This document shows, one piece after another, positions 1 through 37,459 of a stretch of DNA of 37,459 nt (position 1 is its first letter; each line of letters begins with the position of its first letter). Source of the stretch: a virus. Taxonomy: Duplodnaviria; Heunggongvirae; Uroviricota; Caudoviricetes. The notes beneath the pieces were generated by a model that saw nothing but the letters and a program-made list of their open reading frames with translations, had not been told where the DNA came from and ran no database searches. Location of the stretch: the IMG/VR virus record IMGVR_UViG_2695420539_000016; one strand, 5' to 3'. A program made the translations under genes and the position numbers.

Positions 1-405
1 ATGGATCAGGTCGTTGTTTTTCAAAAGATGTTTGAGCAAGTGAGAAAAGAGCAAAACTTCTCCTGGTTTTATTCAGAATTAAAACATCACCGTATTGCAC
101 ATTACATTTATTATCTGGCTACGGATAACATCAGAATTATTACTCACGATGACACGGTTTTGTTATTAAGAGGAACCAGGAACCTGTTAAAAGTTAGTAC
201 GACCAAGAACCCTGCTAAAATAAAAGAGGCCGCATTGCTTCATATTTGCGGAAAATCTACATTTCGGGAATACTGTTCAACACTAGCAGGCGCGGGCGTT
301 TTCCGGTGGGTTACTGATGTTAATCATAACAAACGCAGTTACTACGCCATTGATAATACGCTTTTATATATTGAAGATGTAGAAAATAATAAACCATTAA
401 TCTAG
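1..405 (+). CDS. ycgX: YcgX-like small protein (chromosomal, left-arm copy)
   Basis: 134-aa ORF immediately beyond iraM in the order icdC-iraM-ycgX-bluR that I recall for E. coli K-12; assignment rests on synteny and length, sequence not verified. Confidence 0.5.
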   Translation: MDQVVVFQKMFEQVRKEQNFSWFYSELKHHRIAHYIYYLATDNIRIITHDDTVLLLRGTRNLLKVSTTKNPAKIKEAALLHICGKSTFREYCSTLAGAGVFRWVTDVNHNKRSYYAIDNTLLYIEDVENNKPLI

Positions 406-613
406 CTAAAGTTGGATGCTTAAGAAATGCTTCATAATTCAGTAAGGCATTAGCATAATGGGAATAAAAGTACAGAGACTATCCCTATGGATGATAAATA
501 CTGTCCTTTTATTGCTACCCATAAATAATCACCATGCCAATACTATCAAATTGATATTTGAAATGTGATCACTTGACTTTCTATACGTTATTTTATAACG
601 GTTAATATATTTA

Positions 614-643
614 TAAAAACAACGGGTGTGCCATACGCCCGTT
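614..643 (-). terminator. icd-terminator-like hairpin (second, diverged copy)
   Basis: Stem AACGGG(T)G / CGCCCGTT, A-run upstream on + strand (T-run on - strand); about 55 bp resemble the icd 3' UTR/terminator. Confidence 0.3.
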
Positions 644-1100
644 TCAATACTTAACGCACATGTGTTTTGGTTTAGTCATCATCCAGTTATATGTATTTTA
701 GCCAGGAACAGGTTAAACCTTTCCTATATAACTCAAAAATTGAAACCTTATTCTCATGTCATGCTTATATTCATTATTATCGTTATATAAAAAGGCAACC
801 ATAATGTTTAGCAAATTGGCACAAAGTAGCATAAAGGCTATGTTTTAATTACAGGATGTTCAGTCATTTGAATGTATAACATTATAGCTAAACAAATCTA
901 AAACGAAGTGAATAATTTATTGTTTTCACTAAATCTCATTTTGTTTAACATCCATTGAGATTCCTTGCTTTAAATTTTGTTTTATATAAGCAATCGTTTT
1001 AATTAATTTATTTTTTGAAGGGGTAATATACTCATATGCAAAATAAAGAAATGAACATCCAAATGAACTATATTAAATACCGTGGGATAAGACATAACAA

Positions 1101-1424
1101 ATGAAGTGGATAGTAATTGACACGATAATTCAACCTTCATGCGGCATATCTTTTTCAGCCATATGGGGTAATATGAAAATGATCATCTGGTATCAATCTA
1201 CTATATTTCTCCCTCCTGGCAGTATATTTACACCGGTTAAATCTGGAATTATCCTTAAAGATAAAGAATATCCTATTACTATTTATAACATCGCACCATT
1301 CAACAAGGATTTATGGAGTCTACTCAAAAGCAGTCAAGAGTGTCCTCCAGGAGAAAGCAAAATAACAAATAAATGTTTGCATAATAGTTGCATTATAAAA
1401 ATATGCCCATATGGGCTCAAGTAA
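1101..1424 (+). CDS. iraM: Anti-adaptor protein IraM (RssB inhibitor), left-arm copy
   Basis: 107-aa [35 protein letters not shown]... matches my recollection of E. coli IraM (YcgW) nearly residue for residue; AT-rich context. Confidence 0.65.
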
Positions 1425-1471
1425 AGGGTTTTATATAAATATGCTCGATATGCTATTAATAATACCTACAT

Positions 1472-1504
1472 AAATAAAACAACGGGCGTGTTATACGCCC
1501 GTTG
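1472..1504 (-). terminator. icd rho-independent terminator (left-arm copy)
   Basis: GC-rich stem CAACGGGCG / CGCCCGTTG followed by T-run, directly after the icd-fragment stop. Confidence 0.5.
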
Positions 1505-1526
1505 CAATATTAAACACATGTAGTGA

Positions 1527-1691
1527 TTACATGTTCTTGATGATCGCATCACCAAATTCTGAACATTTCAGCAGTTTAGCGCCTTCCATCAGACGTTCGA
1601 AGTCATAGGTTACAGTCTTGGCGTTGATTGCGCCTTCCATACCTTTAACAATCAGGTCTGCGGCTTCAGTCCAGCCCATATGGCGTAACAT
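1527..1691 (-). pseudogene. icdC: icd 3' fragment (icdC), prophage attR relic, left-arm copy
   Basis: Translates [54 protein letters not shown], the C-terminus of isocitrate dehydrogenase; no upstream icd sequence, AT-rich phage-side DNA abuts it. Confidence 0.75.
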
Positions 1692-2227
1692 TAGATTTAG
1701 AAAATTATTATATCCAATTGAATTAAAACAATTTTATACTTAACGAACATCTAAACTTGTTTTTTTACCTTCACCATAACTCGCTGATTTTGTATAGTTT
1801 ACGTAGCGTTTTGATAACCACTTTATGGCAAAATGGAGGTTCGCTTGAAAACTTCTGTTCTTATCCAGAAATTAATGGAAATTGACAAAACTGTACTATT
1901 CGATGCGGACGTAGTGACCGGTGAGGAATGGTGGCCAACCCCGATTTCTCGTGTTTATCACAATCCGCCACATACTTATGTAGAATTTTAAACAGGTGAA
2001 CAATCTCAAAATGAATCTGACGAGCTAAGTGTTTATAGCGAATTACAAATTTGTGCACATCGAATGATGCAAATTAGAGATTTTGTGCAATCTAACGAGG
2101 GACTGAAACCTGAAAAAATTGTTTCGGAAATAAACATTCAAATTGAACGTATTAAAAAGTGATGGCTGAAGCAATTCTGAAACACTAATTCATATTCTAT
2201 GTTCTTCATACCAATGTGGATTTAACT

Positions 2228-2253
2228 CCCACCCACCCACCAACCCACCAACC
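2228..2253 (-). repeat. G-quadruplex-type G-tract cluster (C-rich on + strand), about 260 bp upstream of the GmrSD-like gene
   Basis: cccacccacccaccaacccaccaacc on + strand, i.e. GGG-N-GGG-N-GGG-N-GGG on - strand, isolated in AT-rich DNA. Confidence 0.35.
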
Positions 2254-2472
2254 ATGATTGGGCGGCGCAAGAAACTAATATCAATTAAAACAGCAAGTTA
2301 TCAGTCTAAACAGAACACCAACGGGATGGAGGAGAGACAAAAAATATCCAATGAAACCGTAGCGCGTCAGCATTCAAAAGCGGGGTTTCTTATTTTTACT
2401 TCACCAGTAACAAATACACTGTATCATAACTACATAAAAATGATTGTTCTGACTCAGATGAATTTCTTACTC

Positions 2473-2501
2473 TTGTGGAATGTCACTTAATGTTATTTAT
2501 A
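2473..2501 (+). promoter_or_regulatory. Candidate sigma70 promoter of the GmrSD-like gene (mirrored at 8412..8440 on - strand)
   Basis: TTGTGG, 17-bp spacer, TTTATA, then AGGT Shine-Dalgarno and ATG at 2510; read by eye. Confidence 0.25.
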
Positions 2502-2509
2502 GGTAAACA

Positions 2510-4399
2510 ATGAAATCCGAAACGCTAACCATCCAGCAAATTTTCCAAAATCAACGACAATATCGTGTTCCATTCTATCAACGTGCCTACGTATGGACGC
2601 AACGAAACCAATGGTCAGCTTTGTTGGAGGATATCTTCGAAAAAGCACAGAGCCGACTTTCGGGAACAAAACCAACCCCTCATTTCCTCGGCGCGGTGGT
2701 GCTGGAACCTCAACTCAAAAACAGCTTGTTAGGTGTAGATACCATACATATTATTGACGGCCAGCAACGTTTAACCACTCTTCAATATATTCTGGCATCC
2801 ATTCGATTATCATTGCGTGCTACAGGCCTTTCTGAACTGGAAGGGTTAGTATTGACTTGCTTGAAAAATACAAACGAAGCAACGATGAGAAATAAAAAGG
2901 TAGAATGCTTCAAACTGTGGCCAACTTTTCGAGATCAAACTCATTTTATTCAAAGTCTTAATGTTGATAATATTGACGATCTCCGTAATGTATTTTCTGA
3001 TAGCTTCACGCAACATGGTACGTTACGTAAACATTTCAACCACCCGCCGTCACTAGAGGCATTATGGTTTTTTACTGAAGCCTTTATAAAATGGATTAAA
3101 ATAGAAAACCACTCACCACAAGAAAATGCTGTAGCACTAATTGAGGCTGTCTTGACGGATCTGAAACTGGTAAGCATATTTCTCGAAGCTGAAGATGATG
3201 CCCAAATAATTTTTGAAACATTAAATGGGCGAGGAGCGGAACTTCATGCAACGGATCTTATTCGCAACTATATCTTTATGTGCGCTGAGCATGAAAATAT
3301 TAATGCTATTGAATTATATGAAAATGAGTGGAAGATCTTTGAAGATAAATACTGGTCGGAAAAGCAACGCCGTGGACGTATTAATAAACCACGCATGGAG
3401 TGGCTTGTACATGCGACATTGCAATCAGAAAGGCAGCGTGAAATTGATCTGTCTCGCCTTTACAATGAGTATCGTGATTATGTAAGTAAGGACTTGCCTT
3501 CACAACGAGCAGATCTGCAAGTAAAGCGCCTCAAACAATATGCATCACAATATAAAGAATTGGTTGGTGGTTTTGGCACAACCCCCATCTCACACTTTGG
3601 ACATCGCATCGCAGCCTATGATGTGACGACACTCTATCCGCTTGCTTTGTTCATTTCGATAGCTAACATCGCCGATGATGAGAAAGCAGCCATGTATAAT
3701 GATCTTGTCTCCTACGTAGTACGAAGATCCGTATGTGGCCTGACGCCAAAGAATTACAACAATGTATTTATGAATGTATTGCGACACTTGTCTAAAACGG
3801 AAATTTCCAGTGTTGAGTTACGTAATATCCTCAATAGCTTAAATGGCGAAGCCTCACGTTGGCCTGGGGACTCAGAATTTCTCAACGCTTGCATCAATGC
3901 TCCACTTTATCCTGGCAGGCTCGACGCACCGAAAATGCGCTCAATGTTAACGGAACTTGAAAGAGAACTTTGTCGCCAAGTGAAGACAGAAAAGCCTGAT
4001 GTTCCAAATCTTTCTAATCTCGATATCGATCATCTTATGCCTCAAAGTTGGTATTCCTGTTGGCCTCTCGAAAATGGTCATATGGTGACAAATTCAGATG
4101 CTACGGTAATGAACCAAATTGTTCTGTCTGGAACCGATCTTACCCCTGAACAGCTACTGGTAAGGAAACGGCAACAAGCGATAGCTACGTTGGGAAATCT
4201 AACTTTGCTTAACCTTAGCGTAAACCGTTCCGTTCAGAATGCTGTATTTCTGAAAAAACGTGATGCTCTCATCGTCCACACCAATCTACGACTGAACATA
4301 CCACTTATACTTAAGGATAAATGGGATGAGAGTGAAATACAGGAGCGAGGTAAAAAGTTGGGGGAAATTGCATTGAAAGTATGGCCAAAATACGATTAA
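2510..4399 (+). CDS. DUF262/DUF1524 protein, GmrSD/BrxU-type candidate type IV (modification-dependent) restriction endonuclease, left-arm copy
   Basis: 629 aa; N-terminal ParB-like DUF262 motifs YRVPFYQRAYVW and IIDGQQRLTTL; C-terminal DUF1524/HNH-like motifs DIDHLMPQ and GNLTLLNLSVNRSVQN. Confidence 0.8.
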   Translation: MKSETLTIQQIFQNQRQYRVPFYQRAYVWTQRNQWSALLEDIFEKAQSRLSGTKPTPHFLGAVVLEPQLKNSLLGVDTIHIIDGQQRLTTLQYILASIRLSLRATGLSELEGLVLTCLKNTNEATMRNKKVECFKLWPTFRDQTHFIQSLNVDNIDDLRNVFSDSFTQHGTLRKHFNHPPSLEALWFFTEAFIKWIKIENHSPQENAVALIEAVLTDLKLVSIFLEAEDDAQIIFETLNGRGAELHATDLIRNYIFMCAEHENINAIELYENEWKIFEDKYWSEKQRRGRINKPRMEWLVHATLQSERQREIDLSRLYNEYRDYVSKDLPSQRADLQVKRLKQYASQYKELVGGFGTTPISHFGHRIAAYDVTTLYPLALFISIANIADDEKAAMYNDLVSYVVRRSVCGLTPKNYNNVFMNVLRHLSKTEISSVELRNILNSLNGEASRWPGDSEFLNACINAPLYPGRLDAPKMRSMLTELERELCRQVKTEKPDVPNLSNLDIDHLMPQSWYSCWPLENGHMVTNSDATVMNQIVLSGTDLTPEQLLVRKRQQAIATLGNLTLLNLSVNRSVQNAVFLKKRDALIVHTNLRLNIPLILKDKWDESEIQERGKKLGEIALKVWPKYD

Positions 4400-4421
4400 T
4401 GCAATTAATAAAATGATTATA

Positions 4422-4445
4422 GCGGCCTTACATTAGTAAGGCCGC
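4422..4445. terminator. Hairpin between convergent pin stub and GmrSD-like gene (possible bidirectional terminator)
   Basis: Mirror of 6468..6491: 9-bp stem GCGGCCTTA / TAAGGCCGC, 6-nt loop. Confidence 0.35.
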
Positions 4446-4624
4446 AACTCACTATTAAATCCTTTAATTTGCATCAAGAACAGCACTGTCAGCCCTAGGC
4501 TCTCGGACTTTGTACCGCTTATCTTGTCTTCAAAAATCAGCTCGCATCCTGCACAGTTCAACGCATTACGTTGTAGATCGATTTTCTGGTCATTTGTTGA
4601 TACGCAAACATAGCCAATAAGCAT
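4433..4624 (-). pseudogene. Truncated Hin/Gin/Pin-family serine invertase (pin 5' stub, about 45 native codons)
   Basis: MLIGYVCVSTNDQKIDLQRNALNCAGCELIFEDKISGT... matches Pin/Gin N-terminus, then diverges into 18 unrelated codons and stops; conserved Arg before the catalytic Ser is Cys. Confidence 0.75.
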
Positions 4625-4650
4625 GGTAGCTCCCTCTGACAAAAGCAGGA

Positions 4651-5058
4651 ATGATGCCATTTTCTCGTTATTTCTGCATTTTCATAAACGTTGGTTTGGG
4701 AGAAGCGGCAAAACGGAATGTAGGTAACGGGCAAAACCAAATTCCGGATATGGCGGCGTTTGCCAGTTCACTTTCATCAACGGGTTTTCAAAAACTCCCT
4801 TCAGGTCTGATTATTCAGTGGGGTATTGTCAGTGGAGCATCAAACTATACGGTGACTTACCCGGTAACATTCCCAAATCGTTCACTTGCGCTGTTGGCTG
4901 TGCCACATACAACGTCGTTGGCTGGTATATCTGCAATGGGCATTGCGAACTGTTCTGATATCACCAAATCACAGTTCTATATAATTGTTGGCGGTATATC
5001 TCAGGGAGAAATTGTCAAATATGAAAGGTCCTGTTTTTGGGTAGCAATCGGTGTATAG
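4651..5058 (+). CDS. Tail-fibre variable C-terminal exon A, here orphaned (first codons come from the flank, not from a fibre constant region)
   Basis: Residues after GLGE are identical to the C-terminal part of the 218-aa fibre at 34814..35470; the leader MMPFSRYFCIFINV is antisense of the pin stub region. Confidence 0.5.
   Translation: MMPFSRYFCIFINVGLGEAAKRNVGNGQNQIPDMAAFASSLSSTGFQKLPSGLIIQWGIVSGASNYTVTYPVTFPNRSLALLAVPHTTSLAGISAMGIANCSDITKSQFYIIVGGISQGEIVKYERSCFWVAIGV
4679..4704. other. Hybrid crossover site: outer half-site is the inverted outer half of ixR, inner half-site is that of ixL
   Basis: TTTTCATAAACG-TT-GGTTTGGGAGAA; compare normal ixL at 35091..35116 (CTCTTCAAAACC-TT-GGTTTGGGAGAA) and ixR at 6209..6234. 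Confidence 0.55.
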
Positions 5059-5066
5059 GTATATCT

Positions 5067-5462
5067 ATGATTTATTTCTCAAAATCGACTAATGGTTTTT
5101 TCTTTGATGGTATAAACAGCGACATGCCTGCTGACATTGTTGAGATAAGTACAGACTTATACAATGAATTAATTGCCGGACAGCAGGAAGGGGGTAAATT
5201 AATCACGTCAGATGAAAATGGTTTACCGGTACTGAAATCTCCGGCGATTGATTATGTCGCACGTGCTGAAAATCAGCGAATGCAGTTACTTGCTCATGCC
5301 GATAATGTCACAGCTGACTGGCGAGTGGAATTAATGCTTGGTGATATCAGCAGTACAGATAAAGAAAAACTATCCGCCTGGATGGACTACAAAAAAGAAG
5401 TAAAAGCCGTCGACACTTCGACGGCTCCTGAGATTAGCTGGCCTGAGTTACCGGAGGTGTAG
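5067..5462 (+). CDS. Tail fibre assembly protein (Tfa), partner of exon A
   Basis: C-terminal motif VDTSTAPEISWPELPEV typical of lambda Tfa / Mu U family; weak RBS before ATG at 5067. Confidence 0.75.
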   Translation: MIYFSKSTNGFFFDGINSDMPADIVEISTDLYNELIAGQQEGGKLITSDENGLPVLKSPAIDYVARAENQRMQLLAHADNVTADWRVELMLGDISSTDKEKLSAWMDYKKEVKAVDTSTAPEISWPELPEV

Positions 5463-5871
5463 GCCATTCAATATCTGGAGCACTGGAGGTATCCACCAGT
5501 TCCAGTGCGTCCAGGTAATCCAGCCACAAATTATATAGTGCCAGTTCCTCGTCTTTCAGACGACCAATAGCGGCTTTACCGGGCCATTGTTTACTGTTCA
5601 TGTATTCGTTGGCCTGATTAAGCAATAATTGCCTTTCTGATTCTGCCTGTTGAATAAGTTCTTCATGCGATGGTGGAGGTATTAGTGCCCATGTGGGTAA
5701 TCCATTTTTTCCTGCAACACGAATTTTGTCATATGGGGGCGTATTGATTGCAAATTCATTATAAACATCATCACTGACAGCCAGAGCATCATCTGGCCAT
5801 GAATTTGCATTAATGTAATCATCCTTAAGCGCAGGATTCACAAAAATGTTTAATGATGGACTATAAAACAT
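5434..5871 (-). CDS. Tail fibre assembly protein (Tfa'), partner of exon B
   Basis: 145 aa ending ...LVDTSSAPDIEWPTPPVTQAS; convergent with the other tfa and overlapping its 3' end. Confidence 0.75.
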   Translation of the reverse strand: MFYSPSLNIFVNPALKDDYINANSWPDDALAVSDDVYNEFAINTPPYDKIRVAGKNGLPTWALIPPPSHEELIQQAESERQLLLNQANEYMNSKQWPGKAAIGRLKDEELALYNLWLDYLDALELVDTSSAPDIEWPTPPVTQAS

Positions 5872-5872
5872 A

Positions 5873-6262
5873 TTAACCCCCTATAGCGATATAACGACCT
5901 AATACAGCATTTGCAGCAGTCGCTATGCTTGAAAAACCGCGGAACTGATTTGATGTAATTGCAGAAGCCGACAGGATTCCTGCGCCTGAAGGTGTATGCC
6001 CCACATGACTAACTATCATTCCATAACATGCTGACGGAAAGGCAAAAGGAAAATCATTAAGATATCCGGCATCTTCACCACCAGACCCACCAAATCTCGC
6101 CTGCCCCCACTGAATAATCAGTGTTCTCCGGGAACCTGAAATAATTAACGGAATCGTTACATACCCATTCAGACCAATGACACCCGATGCAGTGCCAGCC
6201 AGAGATAATTCTCCCAAACCAACGTTTATGAAAATGCAGAAATAACGAGAAAATGGCATCAT
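5873..6262 (-). CDS. Tail-fibre variable C-terminal exon B (alternative receptor-binding domain) with the same 18-codon flank-derived leader
   Basis: Shares MMPFSRYFCIFINVGLGE with the exon A ORF, then a different Gly/Ser-rich C-terminal domain. Confidence 0.5.
   Translation of the reverse strand: MMPFSRYFCIFINVGLGELSLAGTASGVIGLNGYVTIPLIISGSRRTLIIQWGQARFGGSGGEDAGYLNDFPFAFPSACYGMIVSHVGHTPSGAGILSASAITSNQFRGFSSIATAANAVLGRYIAIGG
6209..6234. other. Crossover site ixR of the invertible segment, copy 1
   Basis: TTCTCCCAAACC-AA-CGTTTATGAAAA; inner half is the exact inverted repeat of the ixL inner half. Confidence 0.55.
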
Positions 6263-6288
6263 TCCTGCTTTTGTCAGAGGGAGCTACC

Positions 6289-6480
6289 ATGCTTATTGGC
6301 TATGTTTGCGTATCAACAAATGACCAGAAAATCGATCTACAACGTAATGCGTTGAACTGTGCAGGATGCGAGCTGATTTTTGAAGACAAGATAAGCGGTA
6401 CAAAGTCCGAGAGCCTAGGGCTGACAGTGCTGTTCTTGATGCAAATTAAAGGATTTAATAGTGAGTTGCGGCCTTACTAA
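6289..6480 (+). pseudogene. Truncated pin-type invertase stub (right-arm copy)
   Basis: Same as 4433..4624; GGGAG RBS then ATG; stop codon lies in the loop of the downstream hairpin. Confidence 0.75.
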
Positions 6481-6491
6481 TGTAAGGCCGC
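6468..6491. terminator. Hairpin between pin stub and GmrSD-like gene
   Basis: GCGGCCTTA-CTAATG-TAAGGCCGC, followed by TATAATCATTTTATT. Confidence 0.35.
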
Positions 6492-6513
6492 TATAATCAT
6501 TTTATTAATTGCA

Positions 6514-8403
6514 TTAATCGTATTTTGGCCATACTTTCAATGCAATTTCCCCCAACTTTTTACCTCGCTCCTGTATTTCACTCTCATCCCATTTATCCTT
6601 AAGTATAAGTGGTATGTTCAGTCGTAGATTGGTGTGGACGATGAGAGCATCACGTTTTTTCAGAAATACAGCATTCTGAACGGAACGGTTTACGCTAAGG
6701 TTAAGCAAAGTTAGATTTCCCAACGTAGCTATCGCTTGTTGCCGTTTCCTTACCAGTAGCTGTTCAGGGGTAAGATCGGTTCCAGACAGAACAATTTGGT
6801 TCATTACCGTAGCATCTGAATTTGTCACCATATGACCATTTTCGAGAGGCCAACAGGAATACCAACTTTGAGGCATAAGATGATCGATATCGAGATTAGA
6901 AAGATTTGGAACATCAGGCTTTTCTGTCTTCACTTGGCGACAAAGTTCTCTTTCAAGTTCCGTTAACATTGAGCGCATTTTCGGTGCGTCGAGCCTGCCA
7001 GGATAAAGTGGAGCATTGATGCAAGCGTTGAGAAATTCTGAGTCCCCAGGCCAACGTGAGGCTTCGCCATTTAAGCTATTGAGGATATTACGTAACTCAA
7101 CACTGGAAATTTCCGTTTTAGACAAGTGTCGCAATACATTCATAAATACATTGTTGTAATTCTTTGGCGTCAGGCCACATACGGATCTTCGTACTACGTA
7201 GGAGACAAGATCATTATACATGGCTGCTTTCTCATCATCGGCGATGTTAGCTATCGAAATGAACAAAGCAAGCGGATAGAGTGTCGTCACATCATAGGCT
7301 GCGATGCGATGTCCAAAGTGTGAGATGGGGGTTGTGCCAAAACCACCAACCAATTCTTTATATTGTGATGCATATTGTTTGAGGCGCTTTACTTGCAGAT
7401 CTGCTCGTTGTGAAGGCAAGTCCTTACTTACATAATCACGATACTCATTGTAAAGGCGAGACAGATCAATTTCACGCTGCCTTTCTGATTGCAATGTCGC
7501 ATGTACAAGCCACTCCATGCGTGGTTTATTAATACGTCCACGGCGTTGCTTTTCCGACCAGTATTTATCTTCAAAGATCTTCCACTCATTTTCATATAAT
7601 TCAATAGCATTAATATTTTCATGCTCAGCGCACATAAAGATATAGTTGCGAATAAGATCCGTTGCATGAAGTTCCGCTCCTCGCCCATTTAATGTTTCAA
7701 AAATTATTTGGGCATCATCTTCAGCTTCGAGAAATATGCTTACCAGTTTCAGATCCGTCAAGACAGCCTCAATTAGTGCTACAGCATTTTCTTGTGGTGA
7801 GTGGTTTTCTATTTTAATCCATTTTATAAAGGCTTCAGTAAAAAACCATAATGCCTCTAGTGACGGCGGGTGGTTGAAATGTTTACGTAACGTACCATGT
7901 TGCGTGAAGCTATCAGAAAATACATTACGGAGATCGTCAATATTATCAACATTAAGACTTTGAATAAAATGAGTTTGATCTCGAAAAGTTGGCCACAGTT
8001 TGAAGCATTCTACCTTTTTATTTCTCATCGTTGCTTCGTTTGTATTTTTCAAGCAAGTCAATACTAACCCTTCCAGTTCAGAAAGGCCTGTAGCACGCAA
8101 TGATAATCGAATGGATGCCAGAATATATTGAAGAGTGGTTAAACGTTGCTGGCCGTCAATAATATGTATGGTATCTACACCTAACAAGCTGTTTTTGAGT
8201 TGAGGTTCCAGCACCACCGCGCCGAGGAAATGAGGGGTTGGTTTTGTTCCCGAAAGTCGGCTCTGTGCTTTTTCGAAGATATCCTCCAACAAAGCTGACC
8301 ATTGGTTTCGTTGCGTCCATACGTAGGCACGTTGATAGAATGGAACACGATATTGTCGTTGATTTTGGAAAATTTGCTGGATGGTTAGCGTTTCGGATTT
8401 CAT
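6514..8403 (-). CDS. DUF262/DUF1524 GmrSD/BrxU-type candidate type IV restriction endonuclease (right-arm copy)
   Basis: Identical 629-aa translation to 2510..4399. Confidence 0.8.
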   Translation of the reverse strand: MKSETLTIQQIFQNQRQYRVPFYQRAYVWTQRNQWSALLEDIFEKAQSRLSGTKPTPHFLGAVVLEPQLKNSLLGVDTIHIIDGQQRLTTLQYILASIRLSLRATGLSELEGLVLTCLKNTNEATMRNKKVECFKLWPTFRDQTHFIQSLNVDNIDDLRNVFSDSFTQHGTLRKHFNHPPSLEALWFFTEAFIKWIKIENHSPQENAVALIEAVLTDLKLVSIFLEAEDDAQIIFETLNGRGAELHATDLIRNYIFMCAEHENINAIELYENEWKIFEDKYWSEKQRRGRINKPRMEWLVHATLQSERQREIDLSRLYNEYRDYVSKDLPSQRADLQVKRLKQYASQYKELVGGFGTTPISHFGHRIAAYDVTTLYPLALFISIANIADDEKAAMYNDLVSYVVRRSVCGLTPKNYNNVFMNVLRHLSKTEISSVELRNILNSLNGEASRWPGDSEFLNACINAPLYPGRLDAPKMRSMLTELERELCRQVKTEKPDVPNLSNLDIDHLMPQSWYSCWPLENGHMVTNSDATVMNQIVLSGTDLTPEQLLVRKRQQAIATLGNLTLLNLSVNRSVQNAVFLKKRDALIVHTNLRLNIPLILKDKWDESEIQERGKKLGEIALKVWPKYD

Positions 8404-8659
8404 TGTTTACCTATAAATAACATTAAGTGACATTCCACAAGAGTAAGAAATTCATCTGAGTCAGAACAATCATTTTTATGTAGTTATGATACAGTGTATT
8501 TGTTACTGGTGAAGTAAAAATAAGAAACCCCGCTTTTGAATGCTGACGCGCTACGGTTTCATTGGATATTTTTTGTCTCTCCTCCATCCCGTTGGTGTTC
8601 TGTTTAGACTGATAACTTGCTGTTTTAATTGATATTAGTTTCTTGCGCCGCCCAATCAT

Positions 8660-8685
8660 GGTTGGTGGGTTGGTGGGTGGGTGGG
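8660..8685 (+). repeat. G-quadruplex-type motif upstream of the GmrSD-like gene
   Basis: ggttggtgggttggtgggtgggtggg. Confidence 0.35.
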
Positions 8686-9221
8686 AGTTAAATCCACATT
8701 GGTATGAAGAACATAGAATATGAATTAGTGTTTCAGAATTGCTTCAGCCATCACTTTTTAATACGTTCAATTTGAATGTTTATTTCCGAAACAATTTTTT
8801 CAGGTTTCAGTCCCTCGTTAGATTGCACAAAATCTCTAATTTGCATCATTCGATGTGCACAAATTTGTAATTCGCTATAAACACTTAGCTCGTCAGATTC
8901 ATTTTGAGATTGTTCACCTGTTTAAAATTCTACATAAGTATGTGGCGGATTGTGATAAACACGAGAAATCGGGGTTGGCCACCATTCCTCACCGGTCACT
9001 ACGTCCGCATCGAATAGTACAGTTTTGTCAATTTCCATTAATTTCTGGATAAGAACAGAAGTTTTCAAGCGAACCTCCATTTTGCCATAAAGTGGTTATC
9101 AAAACGCTACGTAAACTATACAAAATCAGCGAGTTATGGTGAAGGTAAAAAAACAAGTTTAGATGTTCGTTAAGTATAAAATTGTTTTAATTCAATTGGA
9201 TATAATAATTTTCTAAATCTA

Positions 9222-9386
9222 ATGTTACGCCATATGGGCTGGACTGAAGCCGCAGACCTGATTGTTAAAGGTATGGAAGGCGCAATCAACGCCAAGACTG
9301 TAACCTATGACTTCGAACGTCTGATGGAAGGCGCTAAACTGCTGAAATGTTCAGAATTTGGTGATGCGATCATCAAGAACATGTAA
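9222..9386 (+). pseudogene. icdC: icd 3' fragment (icdC), prophage right attachment relic
   Basis: 54 codons encoding the Icd C-terminus; homology starts abruptly at 9222 after AT-rich phage-side DNA. Confidence 0.75.
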
Positions 9387-9408
9387 TCACTACATGTGTT
9401 TAATATTG

Positions 9409-9441
9409 CAACGGGCGTATAACACGCCCGTTGTTTTATTT
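9409..9441 (+). terminator. icd rho-independent terminator
   Basis: CAACGGGCG-TATAACA-CGCCCGTTG followed by TTTTATTT. Confidence 0.55.
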
Positions 9442-9488
9442 ATGTAGGTATTATTAATAGCATATCGAGCATATTTATATAAAACCCT

Positions 9489-9812
9489 TTACTTGAGCCC
9501 ATATGGGCATATTTTTATAATGCAACTATTATGCAAACATTTATTTGTTATTTTGCTTTCTCCTGGAGGACACTCTTGACTGCTTTTGAGTAGACTCCAT
9601 AAATCCTTGTTGAATGGTGCGATGTTATAAATAGTAATAGGATATTCTTTATCTTTAAGGATAATTCCAGATTTAACCGGTGTAAATATACTGCCAGGAG
9701 GGAGAAATATAGTAGATTGATACCAGATGATCATTTTCATATTACCCCATATGGCTGAAAAAGATATGCCGCATGAAGGTTGAATTATCGTGTCAATTAC
9801 TATCCACTTCAT
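9489..9812 (-). CDS. iraM: Anti-adaptor protein IraM (right-arm copy)
   Basis: Identical translation to 1101..1424. Confidence 0.65.
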
Positions 9813-10269
9813 TTGTTATGTCTTATCCCACGGTATTTAATATAGTTCATTTGGATGTTCATTTCTTTATTTTGCATATGAGTATATTACCCCTTCAAAA
9901 AATAAATTAATTAAAACGATTGCTTATATAAAACAAAATTTAAAGCAAGGAATCTCAATGGATGTTAAACAAAATGAGATTTAGTGAAAACAATAAATTA
10001 TTCACTTCGTTTTAGATTTGTTTAGCTATAATGTTATACATTCAAATGACTGAACATCCTGTAATTAAAACATAGCCTTTATGCTACTTTGTGCCAATTT
10101 GCTAAACATTATGGTTGCCTTTTTATATAACGATAATAATGAATATAAGCATGACATGAGAATAAGGTTTCAATTTTTGAGTTATATAGGAAAGGTTTAA
10201 CCTGTTCCTGGCTAAAATACATATAACTGGATGATGACTAAACCAAAACACATGTGCGTTAAGTATTGA

Positions 10270-10299
10270 AACGGGCGTATGGCACACCCGTTGTTTTTA
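10270..10299 (+). terminator. Second icd-terminator-like hairpin (diverged duplicate)
   Basis: AACGGGCG-TATGGCA-CACCCGTT then TGTTTTTAT; upstream bases also resemble the icd 3' UTR. Confidence 0.3.
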
Positions 10300-10507
10300 T
10301 AAATATATTAACCGTTATAAAATAACGTATAGAAAGTCAAGTGATCACATTTCAAATATCAATTTGATAGTATTGGCATGGTGATTATTTATGGGTAGCA
10401 ATAAAAGGACAGTATTTATCATCCATAGGGATAGTCTCTGTACTTTTATTCCCATTATGCTAATGCCTTACTGAATTATGAAGCATTTCTTAAGCATCCA
10501 ACTTTAG

Positions 10508-10912
10508 CTAGATTAATGGTTTATTATTTTCTACATCTTCAATATATAAAAGCGTATTATCAATGGCGTAGTAACTGCGTTTGTTATGATTAACATCAGT
10601 AACCCACCGGAAAACGCCCGCGCCTGCTAGTGTTGAACAGTATTCCCGAAATGTAGATTTTCCGCAAATATGAAGCAATGCGGCCTCTTTTATTTTAGCA
10701 GGGTTCTTGGTCGTACTAACTTTTAACAGGTTCCTGGTTCCTCTTAATAACAAAACCGTGTCATCGTGAGTAATAATTCTGATGTTATCCGTAGCCAGAT
10801 AATAAATGTAATGTGCAATACGGTGATGTTTTAATTCTGAATAAAACCAGGAGAAGTTTTGCTCTTTTCTCACTTGCTCAAACATCTTTTGAAAAACAAC
10901 GACCTGATCCAT
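10508..10912 (-). CDS. ycgX: YcgX-like small protein (right-arm copy)
   Basis: Identical translation to 1..405; GAGG RBS lies at 10913+ so the gene context continues naturally past the visible palindrome edge. Confidence 0.5.
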   Translation of the reverse strand: MDQVVVFQKMFEQVRKEQNFSWFYSELKHHRIAHYIYYLATDNIRIITHDDTVLLLRGTRNLLKVSTTKNPAKIKEAALLHICGKSTFREYCSTLAGAGVFRWVTDVNHNKRSYYAIDNTLLYIEDVENNKPLI

Positions 10913-11132
10913 CAGGATAATAACCTCTTGTTAGTTGTGAGACTGCGTAGTGTGCACGATCGGTTTTACCACTTCAATCTGGTCTGTCCTTTGGCTGTGA
11001 TATGTACAGAGTGTGATAGAGGGAATATCTGAATTCTCCCGGTGAGCATTTTGCAACGGACCAGCTCCGGTACAAACGCTGTTGTGGGTTCAGATTATAA
11101 CATTCTGTCTAAGGGGCGGGATAAAGGTGAAA

Positions 11133-11400
11133 TTAGGGGGCATGAAAGATGACTTTATAACCTTGCTCACCCCAATGTTGTAAAAGTTCGTTTTGCCTTC
11201 TCGTTGGTGCCATGCCTGTCCAGACAATCAATGTTTGCGTCGGGAACAGTTCCGGGCGCGGCGATTCAATGGGATCAGCAAGAACAGAAATGTGCCATCC
11301 TGACAATGATAAACGCCATGCTTCCAGCCACAATCGTGCTCTCTCTTCAACATTCCACGCCATCAGAATGGCTTCTTTACCGGGCTTACGGCGCATTACT
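11133..11400 (-). pseudogene. bluR: 3' fragment of a BluR/MlrA-type MerR-family regulator; by synteny probably bluR (ycgE)
   Basis: C-terminal roughly 85 codons of the 168-aa ORF (...[52 protein letters not shown]...) resemble the BluR/MlrA C-terminal domain as I recall it; no MerR HTH region exists upstream on this strand. Confidence 0.45.
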
Positions 11401-13269: not shown

Positions 13270-13539
13270 ATGAAACTGACCTCTATCCATCTTGAAATAC
13301 TACGTCGAGTGAATGAATTGCAGCCAAAGGATTCTAGAATTCAGGCTGCATCATTACCTCATCTCTCAGCAAAAGAGGTTAACTTTGCTATTTCAGATCT
13401 TGCTGATATAGGTTTTATCGATGTTATACGAAGCAAATCTGCCGAAGGTGGATTGATTGCTAATGAGATAACGTCAAAAGGTTTTGCTTTTTTGAGTGAG
13501 ATTGGCGCTGAAAAAAATTCATCGATGAGCACTCATTGA
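13270..13539 (+). CDS. Small winged-helix-like protein (moron 1, gene 1)
   Basis: 89 aa with strong AGGAGA RBS; helix-turn-wing pattern LEILRRV...EVNFAISDLADIGFIDV; AT-rich. Confidence 0.5.
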   Translation: MKLTSIHLEILRRVNELQPKDSRIQAASLPHLSAKEVNFAISDLADIGFIDVIRSKSAEGGLIANEITSKGFAFLSEIGAEKNSSMSTH

Positions 13540-13736: not shown

Positions 13737-14543
13737 GTGGAATCGAAAGTGTCATATTTTTACAGAAGCAAGAATATTTCAGGTGTTTCTATAAATGAAG
13801 ATAGCTTGATTAGCTTAAGCACGGCAATTGTCGAACGCTGCGTTAAAATGAATGAGCAAGCTCAAAAGGAAAGTAGGGAAGTTTGTGCTCAATGTGTTTT
13901 TTTTATTTTGTTCGATGGTAAGGGGTATAAAGTTGATTCTATCGGTGAGCTTGTGAAATACTTTAGACAGGCCACTAGGATTGATCAAATAATTTTTACT
14001 ATTGAAACTTATCAAAGTCGACAGTCTAACAGGATGAATGGATCTTGGATGGAGCTACGAATTGATGAGAGGAATTCAAATAGCAGCACAATGATTGTAG
14101 CATCGGAAGATAATGAGTGGGTTGACTCGTTATGGATTACGATTCAGGATTTACTTAACAAGTGCAAAAATAAATTTAGATTTTTTAGAACAGCTTGGAC
14201 TATGTTAAGTATCCAGATTTCAGGTGTGACAGTTGGCTTTTTGCTTAGCTTATGGACAGCCTCAAAACTGGCGCCAAAACTATCAATCGATGGTGCATTT
14301 GCTTTATCATTTATTTGTATCTTTATTTTGTTTTCGAACTTATGGAGCTTTGCTATTCCATTAATAATTAAGCTTATCGACTTTTTGTTTCCTAGTGTTA
14401 AGTTTGTTATTAATGGTAAAAATTACTTTCACTGGAGTGTCCAGGCTATAATTGGAGCGATTGCCAGTGCGGTTATATTGTATTTTATTAGCTCCATGTT
14501 GCTTTTTGCATTAGAAATGTTAAATAGCATCATTAAGAAATAG
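13737..14543 (+). CDS. Membrane protein with soluble N-terminal domain and about four C-terminal transmembrane helices (moron 1, gene 2)
   Basis: 268-aa ORF (GTG start in the track; first ATG at 13848); hydrophobic C-terminal stretches; visibly AT-rich against neighbouring phage genes. Confidence 0.5.
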   Translation: MESKVSYFYRSKNISGVSINEDSLISLSTAIVERCVKMNEQAQKESREVCAQCVFFILFDGKGYKVDSIGELVKYFRQATRIDQIIFTIETYQSRQSNRMNGSWMELRIDERNSNSSTMIVASEDNEWVDSLWITIQDLLNKCKNKFRFFRTAWTMLSIQISGVTVGFLLSLWTASKLAPKLSIDGAFALSFICIFILFSNLWSFAIPLIIKLIDFLFPSVKFVINGKNYFHWSVQAIIGAIASAVILYFISSMLLFALEMLNSIIKK

Positions 14544-14651: not shown

Positions 14652-15038
14652 ATGTCCGATCCGATTTCCGGCACAGGGTTAGCTGGTGGAGCCCTAACGG
14701 GCGCTAGTATTTATGGACTGCTGACCGGAACTGATTACGGCGTTGTATTTGGCGCATTTGCAGGGGCTGTATTCTACATAGCAACAGCAGCAGATCTGAG
14801 TGCATCGCGCCGACTAGCATATTTTATCGTGTCATATATTGCCGGGATCCTTTGCTCTGGGTTGGTTGGCTCCAAGCTGGCGAACTTGACCGGATACAGT
14901 GATAAACCTCTGGATGCTATTGGTGCCGTAATCGTCTCTGCTTTAGCCGTTAAAATCCTGACGTTCCTGAATAATCAGGATATCGGCTCGCTGGTGGCGC
15001 TCATAACGCGCCGGGGAGGTTCAGGTGGAGCTAAATGA
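14652..15038 (+). CDS. Holin-like glycine-rich multi-pass membrane protein (lysis cassette)
   Basis: ATG 14652 preceded by GAGGTGG; first gene of the lysis block. Confidence 0.5.
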   Translation: MSDPISGTGLAGGALTGASIYGLLTGTDYGVVFGAFAGAVFYIATAADLSASRRLAYFIVSYIAGILCSGLVGSKLANLTGYSDKPLDAIGAVIVSALAVKILTFLNNQDIGSLVALITRRGGSGGAK

Positions 15039-15306
15039 CCCGACAGCAACTATAAATGCGCTGTTATGTGCTTGTGTTGTTATTACTCTGATGTTTTATC
15101 GTCGTGGCGACTCCAGACATCGACCGTGGATATCTCGCTTAGCGTGGCTGCTTACGGTCATTTATAGCGCCGTACCGCTGGCGTATCTGTGCGGTATCTA
15201 CCCTTATTCATCGTGGGCCACTATCGTGGCCAACATTATTTTCCTGTCCGTGCTGGTCGCCGTCAGAGGCAATGTGGCACGTCTGGTTGACCATCTGAGG
15301 CACTAA
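15025..15306 (+). CDS. Holin/antiholin-like small membrane protein (three predicted TM segments)
   Basis: GTG start with GGAGG RBS; overlaps previous gene; immediately precedes the endolysin. Confidence 0.45.
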   Translation: MELNDPTATINALLCACVVITLMFYRRGDSRHRPWISRLAWLLTVIYSAVPLAYLCGIYPYSSWATIVANIIFLSVLVAVRGNVARLVDHLRH

Positions 15307-15920
15307 TGAACCAATCACAATTTCAGCAGGCGGCTGGTATCAGCGCCGATGTTTCTGCACGCTGGTTTCCGCACATTGATGCGGCAATGAAAGAGTTTGG
15401 TATTACAGCAGTTAATGATCAGGCCATGTTCATTGCACAAGTCGGGCATGAGTCTGCAGGATTTACTTCGCTGGCAGAGAGTTTTAACTACTCGGTTGAA
15501 GGGCTGAAGAAAACCTTTGGTAAGCGTCTGACGCCGTACCAGTGCGAAATGCTGGGGCGTGTCGATGGTAAACAGGTCGCTCACCAGCCGCAAATAGCCA
15601 ATCTGGTTTACGGTGACCGCATGGGGAATAACAGCCAGGGTGACGGCTGGAAATATCGCGGTCGTGGCCTGCTTCAAATTACTGGCCGTGAGAACTACAC
15701 CAAATGTGGTGCGGCGCTGAAACTTGACCTTGTCAATACACCAGAATTGCTAACGCAGGAGCGACATGCGGCCCGTTCGGCGGCGTGGTACTTCACGTTA
15801 CGCGGTTGCTTGATGTATTCGGGTGACGTGGAACGTGTAACGCAGATTATTAACGGCGGACAGAATGGCATTAAAGACCGCCGTGAACGTTACGCCAAAG
15901 CAAAAGCCGCACTGGTATGA
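15306..15920 (+). CDS. Endolysin, glycoside hydrolase family 19 (chitinase-class lysozyme)
   Basis: Motifs QVGHESAGFT and YRGRGLLQITGRENY; GAGG RBS. Confidence 0.8.
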   Translation: MNQSQFQQAAGISADVSARWFPHIDAAMKEFGITAVNDQAMFIAQVGHESAGFTSLAESFNYSVEGLKKTFGKRLTPYQCEMLGRVDGKQVAHQPQIANLVYGDRMGNNSQGDGWKYRGRGLLQITGRENYTKCGAALKLDLVNTPELLTQERHAARSAAWYFTLRGCLMYSGDVERVTQIINGGQNGIKDRRERYAKAKAALV

Positions 15921-15927
15921 GGTCACT

Positions 15928-16197
15928 ATGGGACTTGAAATGATTATCGGCCTGGTTGTTGCTGTGCTGGCTGCAATTGCAGGTGCTTTTGGTCTGGGTA
16001 AATCACGCGGTACAAGTATCGCAGAAACAAAAGCGGACCAGCAACGCACTGAAGAACGTGCAGCTGCTACTGAAGCCGTTGCAGAACGTAGGGTAGAGAC
16101 AACAAAAGGAGCCTGGGATGTACAGCAGACTGTTAATCATCTACCTGATGACGATGTTGACCGTGAGTTGCGCGAAAACTTTACCCGCAAAACCTGA
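15928..16197 (+). CDS. Rz-like i-spanin
   Basis: N-terminal TM helix MIIGLVVAVLAAIAGAF then charged periplasmic region; ATG 15928 with GAGG RBS. Confidence 0.6.
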   Translation: MGLEMIIGLVVAVLAAIAGAFGLGKSRGTSIAETKADQQRTEERAAATEAVAERRVETTKGAWDVQQTVNHLPDDDVDRELRENFTRKT

Positions 16198-16336
16198 AGT
16201 AACGGACACGGCCTGTGACTGGGTAAGAATCATCTACCTCACAGGTCAGGACATTGAAGTGCTGGATAAGCTTACGAAGCGGGATATTCTGGCACATAAC
16301 AAAGCAGTACAGCGCAACTGTATTAGCCAGTTATGA
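16118..16336 (+). CDS. Rz1-like o-spanin lipoprotein, overlapping the 3' end of Rz in another frame
   Basis: Signal sequence ending LTVSC (lipobox-like); AAAGGAG RBS. Confidence 0.5.
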   Translation: MYSRLLIIYLMTMLTVSCAKTLPAKPEVTDTACDWVRIIYLTGQDIEVLDKLTKRDILAHNKAVQRNCISQL

Positions 16337-16347
16337 GGCAAACGAGA

Positions 16348-16370
16348 TTGCGGGCAATTATCGCCCGCAA
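16348..16370. terminator. Hairpin between convergent Rz1 and the antisense moron gene
   Basis: TTGCGGGC-AATTATC-GCCCGCAA. Confidence 0.35.
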
Positions 16371-16378
16371 TAAAGTTA

Positions 16379-35470: not shown

Positions 35471-35478
35471 GTATATCT

Positions 35479-36283: not shown

Positions 36284-36284
36284 A

Positions 36285-36925: not shown

Positions 36926-37459
36926 TTAATCGTATTTTGGCCATACTTTCAATGCAATTTCCCCCAACTTTTTACCTCGCTCCTGTATTTCACTCTCATC
37001 CCATTTATCCTTAAGTATAAGTGGTATGTTCAGTCGTAGATTGGTGTGGACGATGAGAGCATCACGTTTTTTCAGAAATACAGCATTCTGAACGGAACGG
37101 TTTACGCTAAGGTTAAGCAAAGTTAGATTTCCCAACGTAGCTATCGCTTGTTGCCGTTTCCTTACCAGTAGCTGTTCAGGGGTAAGATCGGTTCCAGACA
37201 GAACAATTTGGTTCATTACCGTAGCATCTGAATTTGTCACCATATGACCATTTTCGAGAGGCCAACAGGAATACCAACTTTGAGGCATAAGATGATCGAT
37301 ATCGAGATTAGAAAGATTTGGAACATCAGGCTTTTCTGTCTTCACTTGGCGACAAAGTTCTCTTTCAAGTTCCGTTAACATTGAGCGCATTTTCGGTGCG
37401 TCGAGCCTGCCAGGATAAAGTGGAGCATTGATGCAAGCGTTGAGAAATTCTGAGTCCCC
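36926..37459 (-). CDS. GmrSD/BrxU-type DUF262/DUF1524 gene, 3' portion (gene runs off the window end)
   Basis: C-terminal residues identical to the 629-aa protein. Confidence 0.75.
   Translation of the reverse strand, partial: GDSEFLNACINAPLYPGRLDAPKMRSMLTELERELCRQVKTEKPDVPNLSNLDIDHLMPQSWYSCWPLENGHMVTNSDATVMNQIVLSGTDLTPEQLLVRKRQQAIATLGNLTLLNLSVNRSVQNAVFLKKRDALIVHTNLRLNIPLILKDKWDESEIQERGKKLGEIALKVWPKYD

What the first reader, a model, noticed from the sequence alone, without database searches (positions are those of the whole stretch)
6514..8403. GmrSD/BrxU-type candidate type IV restriction enzyme occupying the invertase-adjacent prophage slot
The 629-aa protein combines DUF262 signatures (YRVPFYQRAYVW, DGQQR) with a C-terminal DUF1524/HNH-like nuclease signature (DIDHLMPQ, GNLTLLNLSVN), the fusion typical of GmrSD/BrxU modified-DNA restriction enzymes. 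It sits between the pin stub and icdC, where K-12 e14 carries mcrA (itself a modified-cytosine restriction enzyme, as I recall), suggesting this slot is an exchangeable defence locus. Two complete copies and one partial copy are visible.
Basis: partly seen in the sequence, partly recalled or inferred. Interest (0 to 1): 0.75.

Follow-up and report, generated by a model that had tools for sequence, protein, structure and literature searches.

The report
Known GmrSD restriction enzyme on prophage

Summary
It matches Pfam GmrSD_N (1.7e-33) and GmrSD_C (4.9e-20), and the PADLOC mREase_IV model end to end (1523.7 bits). It is 629/629 identical to the resequenced single-chain EcoCT596GmrSD, the prototype of the family, and 627/629 identical to the biochemically characterised Eco94GmrSD. 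The catalytic residues D507, H508 and N522 are present. Function is therefore known: an NTP-stimulated, modification-dependent HNH nuclease that restricts T-even phages and is blocked by T4 Ip1.

The positional claim also holds. A 2,787-bp low-GC cassette (6425-9211) replaces the 3' part of pinE plus mcrA of K-12 e14, just inside attR/icdC. Eight other icd-integrated elements were read at the same place. One carries gmrSD again, one McrBC-like genes, two PD-T4-3 plus a type II R-M system, two sitABCD, and K-12 and a near-identical relative carry mcrA.

The "two and a half copies" are exact repeats of one locus. The window folds back through the invertible tail-fibre segment and loops through a junction seen in no complete genome. 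Complete genomes carry one copy (median).

Novelty: already known. Interest: low.

The parts
6514..8403 (-). gmrSD coding sequence (629 aa), the finding itself. Identical to EcoCT596GmrSD.
   Evidence: ORF. Pfam GmrSD_N plus GmrSD_C. PADLOC mREase_IV 1523.7 bits. 629/629 identity to CT596GmrSD. RefSeq WP_001526918.1, annotated 'DUF262 domain-containing protein'.
7636..8382 (-). N-terminal DUF262/GmrSD_N domain (aa 8-256), which includes the DGQQR motif at 8143-8157 (aa 83-87). Described in the literature as a ParB/Srx-like NTP-binding domain.
   Evidence: Fold and role assignment from PMC4619093.
6547..7053 (-). C-terminal DUF1524/GmrSD_C His-Me finger (HNH) nuclease domain (aa 451-619). D507-H508 lie at 6880-6885 and N522 at 6838-6840.
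   Evidence: D507A, H508A and N522A abolish cleavage in Eco94GmrSD (PMC4437046).
8404..8624 (-). About 220 bp upstream of gmrSD that travels with the gene in every genomic context examined. Presumed promoter and leader. An AGG lies 8-10 nt before the ATG.
   Evidence: Homology 6209-8614/8624 in prophages at ssrA, near pao and at another site. Upstream sequence. The promoter scan was not above shuffles, so the promoter position is inferred, not shown.
6289..6480 (+). pin stub. The first 45 or so codons are homologous to K-12 PinE (184 aa), with R7C in the YVRVS motif. The frame then reads into the cassette and stops.
   Evidence: Annotated 'recombinase family protein, incomplete, missing C-terminus' in RefSeq genomes.
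6425..9211 (.). Cassette that is not homologous to K-12 e14 (39.4% GC). It replaces the 1,584 bp of K-12 that hold the 3' part of pinE, mcrA and flanks.
   Evidence: blastn of the window against K-12. GC values.
8625..9211 (.). attR-proximal segment specific to icd-integrated elements. It carries no annotated gene in the gmrSD-bearing genomes. It is shared (90-91% identity from about 8670) with prophages that carry PD-T4-3 plus a type II R-M system in place of gmrSD.
9219..9386 (+). icdC, the displaced 3' end of icd at attR. This marks the right end of the prophage. The chromosomal genes iraM (9489-9812 -) and ycgX (10508-10912 -) follow.
6209..6234 (.). Right crossover site of the invertible tail-fibre segment (TTCTCCCAAACCAACGTTTATGAAAA). 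The partner site lies at about 35092-35117. A hybrid site at 4679-4704 forms the fold-back.
4705..6208 (.). Invertible segment. It holds two alternative tail-fibre C-termini and two tail-fibre assembly genes, and it is the spacer of the window's palindrome. A second copy lies at 35118-36620.
   Evidence: Both orientations occur among complete genomes.
2510..4399 (+). Exact inverted duplicate of gmrSD, inside arm 1-4704. It is the same locus read from the other strand and is most likely an assembly fold-back.
36926..37459 (-). Partial third copy of gmrSD (C-terminal 177 codons), cut by the end of the window. It occupies the natural position after the tail-fibre module.

Best explanation
This is the gmrSD gene of an e14/SfII-like myovirus prophage integrated in icd. 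It is a single-polypeptide Type IV (modification-dependent) restriction endonuclease, identical to the E. coli CT596 prototype.

Mechanism, as established in the literature for this sequence and for its two-residue variant Eco94GmrSD: the N-terminal DUF262 (ParB/Srx-like) domain with the DGQQR motif binds and hydrolyses NTPs. The C-terminal DUF1524 His-Me finger nuclease (D507-H508-N522) cuts DNA that carries glucosyl-5-hydroxymethylcytosine or 5-hydroxymethylcytosine. The lysogen thereby excludes T-even phages. T4 escapes by co-injecting the internal protein Ip1 (IPI*), which inhibits this GmrSD subtype specifically.

Shown here: the sequence identity, the domains, the catalytic residues, an intact ORF and the genomic position. 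Inferred: that the gene is expressed in this host from the roughly 220-bp upstream region that always travels with it.

The gene arrived as part of a low-GC cassette that replaced the 3' two-thirds of pin and the mcrA position next to attR. The pin'-gmrSD junction is the same in prophages at other integration sites, so it arose once and then spread by recombination between related prophages.
For: - Domains: Pfam GmrSD_N 116.8 bits and GmrSD_C 72.3 bits, both above gathering cut-offs. PADLOC mREase_IV 1523.7 bits over 1-629 of 629.
- Identity: 629/629 to CT596GmrSD, 627/629 to Eco94GmrSD, 585/629 to UTI89 GmrSD. D507, H508, C517, N522, N528, N535 and the E271-K280 motif all sit at the published positions.
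- Published biochemistry and genetics: ATP-stimulated cleavage of glc-5hmC and 5hmC DNA, more than 10^6-fold restriction of T4 delta-ip1, and loss of activity in D507A, H508A and N522A (PMC4437046). GmrSD-CT596 is inhibited by Ip1 only, not by Ip2 or Ip3 (PMC12373910).
- Context: complete genome NZ_CM132280.1, 100% identical over the aligned stretches (window 1-4704 and 16621-37459; 99.97% over 4681-11397), reads icd - int/xis ... Q - lysis - terminase - tail - tail fibre - invertible segment - pin stub - gmrSD - icdC - iraM.
- Cassette boundaries at 6424 and 9212 relative to K-12 e14. GC is 41.3% for the gene against 55.2% for the late region.
- The pin'-gmrSD module 6209-8624 is conserved at 90-98% in four other loci.
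- The gene is present in 304 of 5,426 complete E. coli genomes, always on the chromosome.
Against: - No expression or activity data exist for this particular source.
- The promoter scan found no more sigma-70-like sites than shuffled sequence (10 against 8.6 +/- 2.7), so the promoter is unassigned.
- The 93%-identical UTI89 enzyme was inactive in vitro (PMC4437046 supplement), which shows that close relatives can behave differently. The window protein, however, is the CT596 sequence itself.
- The window's abnormal topology means its source sequence may be partly misassembled.
Confidence: 0.95

Rival explanations
1. It is a DUF262/DUF1524 effector of another system: a BREX-embedded BrxU, or a phosphorothioate-sensing SspE/DndI-type nuclease that needs partner genes.
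For: The domain pair is the same. PADLOC gives weak hits to SspE models limited to the N-terminus (53.6 bits, residues 8-108). The only solved structure found by sequence is 9jfl_B (E=2.6e-7, residues 2-261), an entry code that occurs in the IscS-DndBCDE-DndI paper.
Against: The mREase_IV model scores 1523.7 bits against 54 bits or less for SspE. The protein is 100% identical to an enzyme that works alone when cloned. No brx, pgl, ssp or dnd genes are among the neighbours, which are tail-fibre genes, a pin stub, icdC and iraM. BrxU is reported to be only 13% identical to GmrSD.
Confidence: 0.02
2. The three copies are real. The defence gene has been amplified by an inverted duplication plus a 30.4-kb tandem or circular repeat in the source genome.
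For: The window contains a 4,704-nt perfect palindrome and a repeat of about 30,412 bp. The bluR|DUF968 junction at 11397/11398 is blunt, with at most 1-2 nt of shared sequence. That is not what a k-mer collapse at a repeat would give, but it is what the novel joint of a tandem duplication or an aberrantly excised circle would look like.
Against: The copies are 100% identical. The palindrome pivots exactly on the invertible segment. Its left joint is the hybrid crossover site expected when reads of the inverted orientation are merged with reads of the other orientation, and both orientations do exist in nature. None of 5,426 complete genomes spans the junction. It is also absent from the viral, genome and metagenome contig collections. 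Genomes with the gene have a median of one copy.
Confidence: 0.1
3. The gene is a decaying remnant of prophage cargo that no longer gives protection.
For: The neighbouring pin is truncated. The UTI89 homologue was inactive in vitro. RefSeq annotates the protein only as 'DUF262 domain-containing protein'.
Against: The ORF is full length with all catalytic residues. The exact protein sequence is recorded on at least 1,000 contigs. It equals the sequence shown to restrict T-even phages.
Confidence: 0.03

Closest known systems
EcoCT596GmrSD (prototype GmrSD, resequenced single-chain form)
   Same: 629/629 residues identical. Reported to lie on a curable prophage (PMC4437046). Ip1-sensitive restriction of glc-5hmC phages.
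   Different: Nothing at the protein level. The originally published two-gene GmrS/GmrD form was a cloning-derived truncation and re-initiation product.
Eco94GmrSD (ECSTEC94C_1402, WP_000834395)
   Same: Same length and the same catalytic residues. Described as lying immediately downstream of the tail-fibre genes of an SfII-like 41.5-kb prophage, which matches the roughly 41-kb prophage seen here.
   Different: Two substitutions: R316H and Q611L.
UTI89 GmrSD (UTI89_C2960)
   Same: 585/629 residues identical. It has the same pin stub-gmrSD junction next to an invertible tail-fibre segment.
   Different: Its prophage is integrated next to ssrA, not in icd. It is followed by a DinI pseudogene and a PD-T4-3-like GIY-YIG gene. 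It is reported to be insensitive to IPI*, with a different phage range, and inactive in vitro.
BrxU (BREX-embedded GmrSD homologue, Escherichia fergusonii pEFER)
   Same: DUF262 plus DUF1524 architecture, DGQQR and DH..N motifs, NTP-dependent cleavage of modified cytosine DNA.
   Different: Reported at only 13% identity. The PDB sequence search at E<=10 returned one chain only, 9jfl_B. BrxU sits inside a BREX operon on a plasmid. It also cuts 5mC DNA. An ECOR21 BrxU-type GmrSD is blocked by Ip2, not by Ip1. Whether CT596 GmrSD shares the intertwined-dimer cycle is untested.
EcoKMcrA of K-12 e14
   Same: Same chromosomal slot between the invertase and attR/icdC of an icd-integrated prophage. 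Also a Type IV enzyme with an HNH-type nuclease.
   Different: No sequence homology to the cassette. It is 277 aa and lies on the opposite strand relative to pin. It targets 5mC (C5mCGG) rather than glc-5hmC. In K-12 pinE is intact.
9jfl_B, a PDB chain deposited as 'DUF262 domain-containing protein'
   Same: Closest solved structure by sequence. The N-terminal DUF262 domain aligns with residues 2-261 (E=2.6e-7) and keeps the DGQQR motif.
   Different: The similarity is confined to the N-terminal domain. The entry code occurs in the paper on the phosphorothioate-sensing IscS-DndBCDE-DndI system. I did not open that paper, so assigning the chain to DndI is an inference.

Membership tests
[quoted passage not shown] | N-terminal DUF262 / GmrSD_N domain above the Pfam gathering score | tested here: met
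   PF03235: 116.8 bits against a cut-off of 33.2; residues 8-256 cover profile positions 1-199 of 199.
[quoted passage not shown] | Conserved (I/V)(I/V)DGQQRLTT NTP-binding motif | tested here: met
   IIDGQQRLTT, with DGQQR at residues 83-87. Motif definition from PMC4619093.
[quoted passage not shown] | C-terminal DUF1524 / GmrSD_C His-Me finger nuclease domain above the gathering score | tested here: met
   PF07510: 72.3 bits against a cut-off of 23; residues 451-619 cover profile positions 1-137 of 138.
[quoted passage not shown] | Catalytic (D/E)H...N residues and the LGNLxLL / NxxFxxKK motifs | tested here: met
   D507, H508, N522; LGNLTLLNLSVN with the GNLTLLNLSVN portion at 562-572; FLKKR at 580-584. 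Mutagenesis of the same positions in Eco94GmrSD.
[quoted passage not shown] | Identity to an experimentally characterised member | tested here: met
   629/629 to CT596GmrSD and 627/629 to Eco94GmrSD.
[quoted passage not shown] | Modification-dependent, NTP-stimulated cleavage and restriction of T-even phages, relieved by Ip1 | not testable with these tools
   Taken from the literature for the identical or 2-aa-different protein (PMC4437046, PMC12373910).
BrxU subtype (BREX-associated GmrSD homologue) | Gene embedded in a BREX (brx/pgl) operon | tested here: not met
   The neighbours are tail-fibre genes, a pin stub, icdC and iraM.
BrxU subtype (BREX-associated GmrSD homologue) | Detectable close sequence similarity to BrxU | tested here: not met
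   phmmer against all PDB chains at E<=10 returns only 9jfl_B. 13% identity is reported in PMC8565348. Whether BrxU chains are in that PDB copy was not checked.
BrxU subtype (BREX-associated GmrSD homologue) | Intertwined dimer that dissociates on ATP binding | not tested
   The single-sequence AlphaFold2 model was unusable (mean pLDDT 37.3). No alignment-based model was made.
SspE / DndI-type phosphorothioate-sensing DUF262 nucleases | Full-length match to family models and adjacent ssp/dnd modification genes | tested here: not met
   SspE models reach 53.6 bits or less and cover residues 8-108 only. No ssp or dnd genes are in the neighbourhood.
McrA (the K-12 occupant of the slot) | Sequence homology to EcoKMcrA | tested here: not met
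   No blastn match between window 6425-9211 and K-12 14822-16405. Pfam reports only the GmrSD domains.

The most novel reading that the evidence does not exclude
The stretch between the tail-fibre/invertase module and attR of icd-integrated, and related SfII/e14-like, E. coli prophages is a dedicated exchange site for restriction-type defence cargo. Seen so far are McrA, GmrSD, McrBC-like genes, and PD-T4-3 plus a type II R-M system. Acquisition of gmrSD destroyed the resident pin gene once, and the tail-fibre switch has since depended on invertases supplied in trans. I did not find this positional allelism stated in the papers searched.
Probability: 0.5. Interest if true: 0.35.

Novelty: already known. 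Interest (0 to 1): 0.15.

Why it matters
The practical value is annotation. RefSeq labels this protein only as 'DUF262 domain-containing protein', although it is the prototype GmrSD. Lysogens that carry it (about 5.6% of complete E. coli genomes) should resist T-even phages that lack a matching Ip1, which matters when choosing phages for therapy.

The modest new angle is positional. Unrelated restriction systems occupy the same attR-proximal slot of icd-integrated prophages. That would add an e14/SfII-type hotspot to the known P2/P4 defence hotspots, if a systematic survey confirms it.

Tried and rejected
- NCBIfam gave no hit.
- Single-sequence AlphaFold2 gave an unusable model (pLDDT 37.3, pTM 0.24), so no fold search was run.
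- The sigma-70 and terminator scan of 6200-9300 was not above shuffles. The promoter is left unassigned. A perfect 10-bp stem with a 4-nt loop (GCGGCCTTAC-ATTA-GTAAGGCCGC) lies just after the stop codon, but it has no T-run.
- tblastn against 50,697 phage records found no close homologue (best 24.7% identity). This gmrSD lineage is therefore seen only in chromosomal prophages in these collections.
- I tried to trace the window's origin through its unique bluR|DUF968 junction. There was no match in viral, genome or metagenome contigs, and no complete E. coli genome spans it.
- I considered and rejected membership of BrxU, SspE/DndI and McrA (see the membership test).
- I considered real gene amplification and judged it unlikely (see the rival explanations).

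Full report
**Observation.** The ORF at 6514-8403 on the minus strand encodes 629 aa. Pfam assigns GmrSD_N (PF03235, 1.7e-33, full profile) and GmrSD_C (PF07510, 4.9e-20), both well above their gathering scores. PADLOC's mREase_IV model PDLC03655 matches positions 1-629 of 629 with 1523.7 bits. The next-best models, generic GmrSD-like 'Orf5' and 'HEC-06', score 259 bits or less, and SspE models 54 bits or less. NCBIfam has no model for the protein.

**Identity.** The supplement of He et al. 2015 (PMC4437046, Fig. S1) prints the sequences of the characterised enzymes. Compared residue by residue, the window protein is 629/629 identical to the resequenced single-chain EcoCT596GmrSD. It is 627/629 identical to Eco94GmrSD (R316H, Q611L) and 585/629 identical to the UTI89 enzyme. 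D507, H508 and N522, whose alanine mutants lose nuclease activity, are present, as is the E271-K280 motif. The exact sequence is in UniRef as Q8KTH0_ECOLX and is recorded on at least 1,000 contigs. RefSeq calls it WP_001526918.1, 'DUF262 domain-containing protein'.

**Function and mechanism, from the literature on this sequence.** GmrSD is a Type IV, modification-dependent endonuclease.
- Eco94GmrSD cleaves glc-5hmC and 5hmC DNA in Mg2+ or Mn2+, is stimulated by ATP, and restricts T4 delta-ip1 more than 10^6-fold.
- The DUF262 domain is modelled as a ParB/Srx-like NTPase. The DUF1524 domain is modelled as an HNH / His-Me finger nuclease.
- GmrSD-CT596 is inhibited by T4 Ip1 and not by Ip2 or Ip3.
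- BrxU, the only family member whose crystal structure came up in the papers read here, is reported at 13% identity and cycles between an intertwined dimer and ATP-bound monomers. Whether CT596 GmrSD does the same is not known.
- By sequence, the only solved relative is 9jfl_B, and the match covers the N-terminal domain only. That entry code occurs in the IscS-DndBCDE-DndI paper.
- A single-sequence AlphaFold2 model was useless (pLDDT 37.3).

**Genomic position.** The complete genome NZ_CM132280.1 is 100% identical to the window over the aligned stretches 1-4704 and 16621-37459, and 99.97% over 4681-11397. It shows the natural arrangement:
- icd
- a prophage of about 41 kb: integrase and excisionase, immunity and replication genes, DUF968, Q, holins and endolysin, HNH and terminase, HK97-type head, contractile tail, baseplate, tail fibre, invertible segment, pin stub
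- gmrSD
- icdC, iraM, ycgX, bluR

K-12 e14 reads pinE-mcrA-icdC-iraM. Homology between the two ends at window 6424, about codon 45 of pin, and resumes at 9212, which is attR. A 2,787-bp cassette of 39.4% GC therefore replaces the 1,584 bp that hold the 3' part of pinE and mcrA. The pin remnant keeps only Resolvase-domain positions 2-54 of 145 and has R7C in the YVRVS motif.

**Spread of the module.** The gene is in 304 of 5,426 complete E. coli genomes. It is always chromosomal, with a median of one copy. About 49-59 of these have it at icd. Most of the rest are the 93% UTI89-type allele. In UTI89 (next to ssrA), 14EC001 (next to pao), strain 164 and Jnd12 (icd), gmrSD is always preceded by the same truncated recombinase. 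Homology runs continuously from 6209 to 8614/8624. The truncation of pin and the acquisition of gmrSD therefore look like one ancestral event that moved between related prophages. No isolated phage in the INPHARED set carries a close homologue.

**Is the slot an exchangeable defence locus?** Eight further icd-integrated elements were examined at the same position.
- MG1655-type strains and strain H3 carry pinE-mcrA. This arrangement is present in 329 genomes, among them K-12 laboratory strains.
- Jnd12 carries pin'-gmrSD.
- EC96 carries an AAA ATPase plus McrC (PF10117) with IS elements.
- 8GC and EC190486 carry PD-T4-3 (7.6e-140) plus a C5-methyltransferase and a type II endonuclease. They share the attR-proximal segment 8670-9211 with the window.
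- KE47 and UPEC 536 carry sitABCD and other non-defence genes.

He et al. noted only that the gene lies just downstream of tail-fibre genes on an SfII-like prophage. The term e14 does not occur in that paper. I found no statement of the mcrA/gmrSD positional equivalence in the papers searched.

**The 'copies'.** Window 1-4704 is the perfect reverse complement of 6209-10912, with the 1,504-nt invertible segment between them. Positions 4681-7047 recur at 35094-37459, with one mismatch and one 1-nt indel (the first copy is 1 nt longer), both inside the crossover site. The left joint (4679-4704) is the hybrid site expected from the inverted orientation read on the other strand. Both orientations occur among complete genomes that have the stub. 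They even differ between the near-identical genomes 22-245 (direct) and 22-250 (inverted). The simplest reading is that an assembler merged the two orientations into a fold-back.

At 11397/11398 the window jumps bluntly from inside bluR to inside the prophage DUF968 gene, skipping the whole early region. No complete genome and no public contig collection searched contains this joint. It could be the novel joint of a tandem duplication or of an excised circle, or it could be an artefact. I cannot decide which. Either way, the three gmrSD copies are one locus.

**Verdict.** Novelty is 'already known' and interest is low. The residual value lies in the positional exchange of restriction systems next to attR and in the continued inversion of the tail-fibre segment beside a dead invertase.

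Noticed in passing
window 1-4704 vs 6209-10912; spacer 4705-6208: A perfect 4,704-nt palindrome pivots on the invertible tail-fibre segment. Its left joint (4679-4704) is a hybrid crossover site. The likely cause is an assembly fold-back from a population that holds both orientations of the segment.
   Followed up: partly
window 11397/11398: A blunt junction joins the interior of chromosomal bluR to the interior of the prophage DUF968 gene. The window therefore lacks the whole early region of the prophage (int to KilA-N) and has a period of about 30,412 bp. The joint is absent from 5,426 complete E. coli genomes and from the viral, genome and metagenome contig collections. It may be a tandem duplication, an aberrantly excised circle, or an artefact.
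   Followed up: partly
window 35118-36620 (= 4705-6208) with the pin stub at 6289-6480: The tail-fibre segment is found in both orientations among complete genomes whose adjacent pin is the same non-functional stub. The near-identical strains 22-245 and 22-250 differ in orientation. Inversion therefore seems to continue, presumably through a serine invertase supplied in trans by another prophage.
   Followed up: partly
L003 14725-17847 (NZ_CM132280.1, left end of the same prophage, outside the window): A 1,040-aa ORF and a 156-aa ORF lie between icd/attL and the integrase, where K-12 e14 carries ymfD, ymfE and lit. Neither has a Pfam or PADLOC hit. They may be uncharacterised cargo.
   Followed up: partly
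window 13270-13539 and 13737-14543: Low-GC ORFs (36-40% GC) lie between the Q antiterminator and the holins, the classical lambdoid moron position. The 268-aa ORF has no Pfam or PADLOC family. The 89-aa ORF has only a sub-threshold DUF2513 hit.
   Followed up: partly
window 29221-29751: A 176-aa ORF sits in a low-GC island (about 39% against 55% around it) between the tape-measure gene and the DNA circularisation gene. It has no Pfam or PADLOC family.
   Followed up: partly
L004 7942-8715 (UTI89) and L011 1911-2684 (strain 8GC): A LEM-3-like GIY-YIG protein lies at the same prophage right end. In 8GC it matches PADLOC PD-T4-3 (7.6e-140) and sits beside a type II R-M system. In UTI89 a gene with the same annotation sits beside gmrSD. 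Defence genes cluster at this end of the prophage.
   Followed up: partly
window 8625-9211: A 587-bp AT-rich (35% GC) segment lies between the gmrSD module and attR and is unannotated in the gmrSD-bearing genomes. The homologous segment in strains 8GC and EC190486 holds an annotated 113-aa hypothetical ORF with no family hit.
   Followed up: partly
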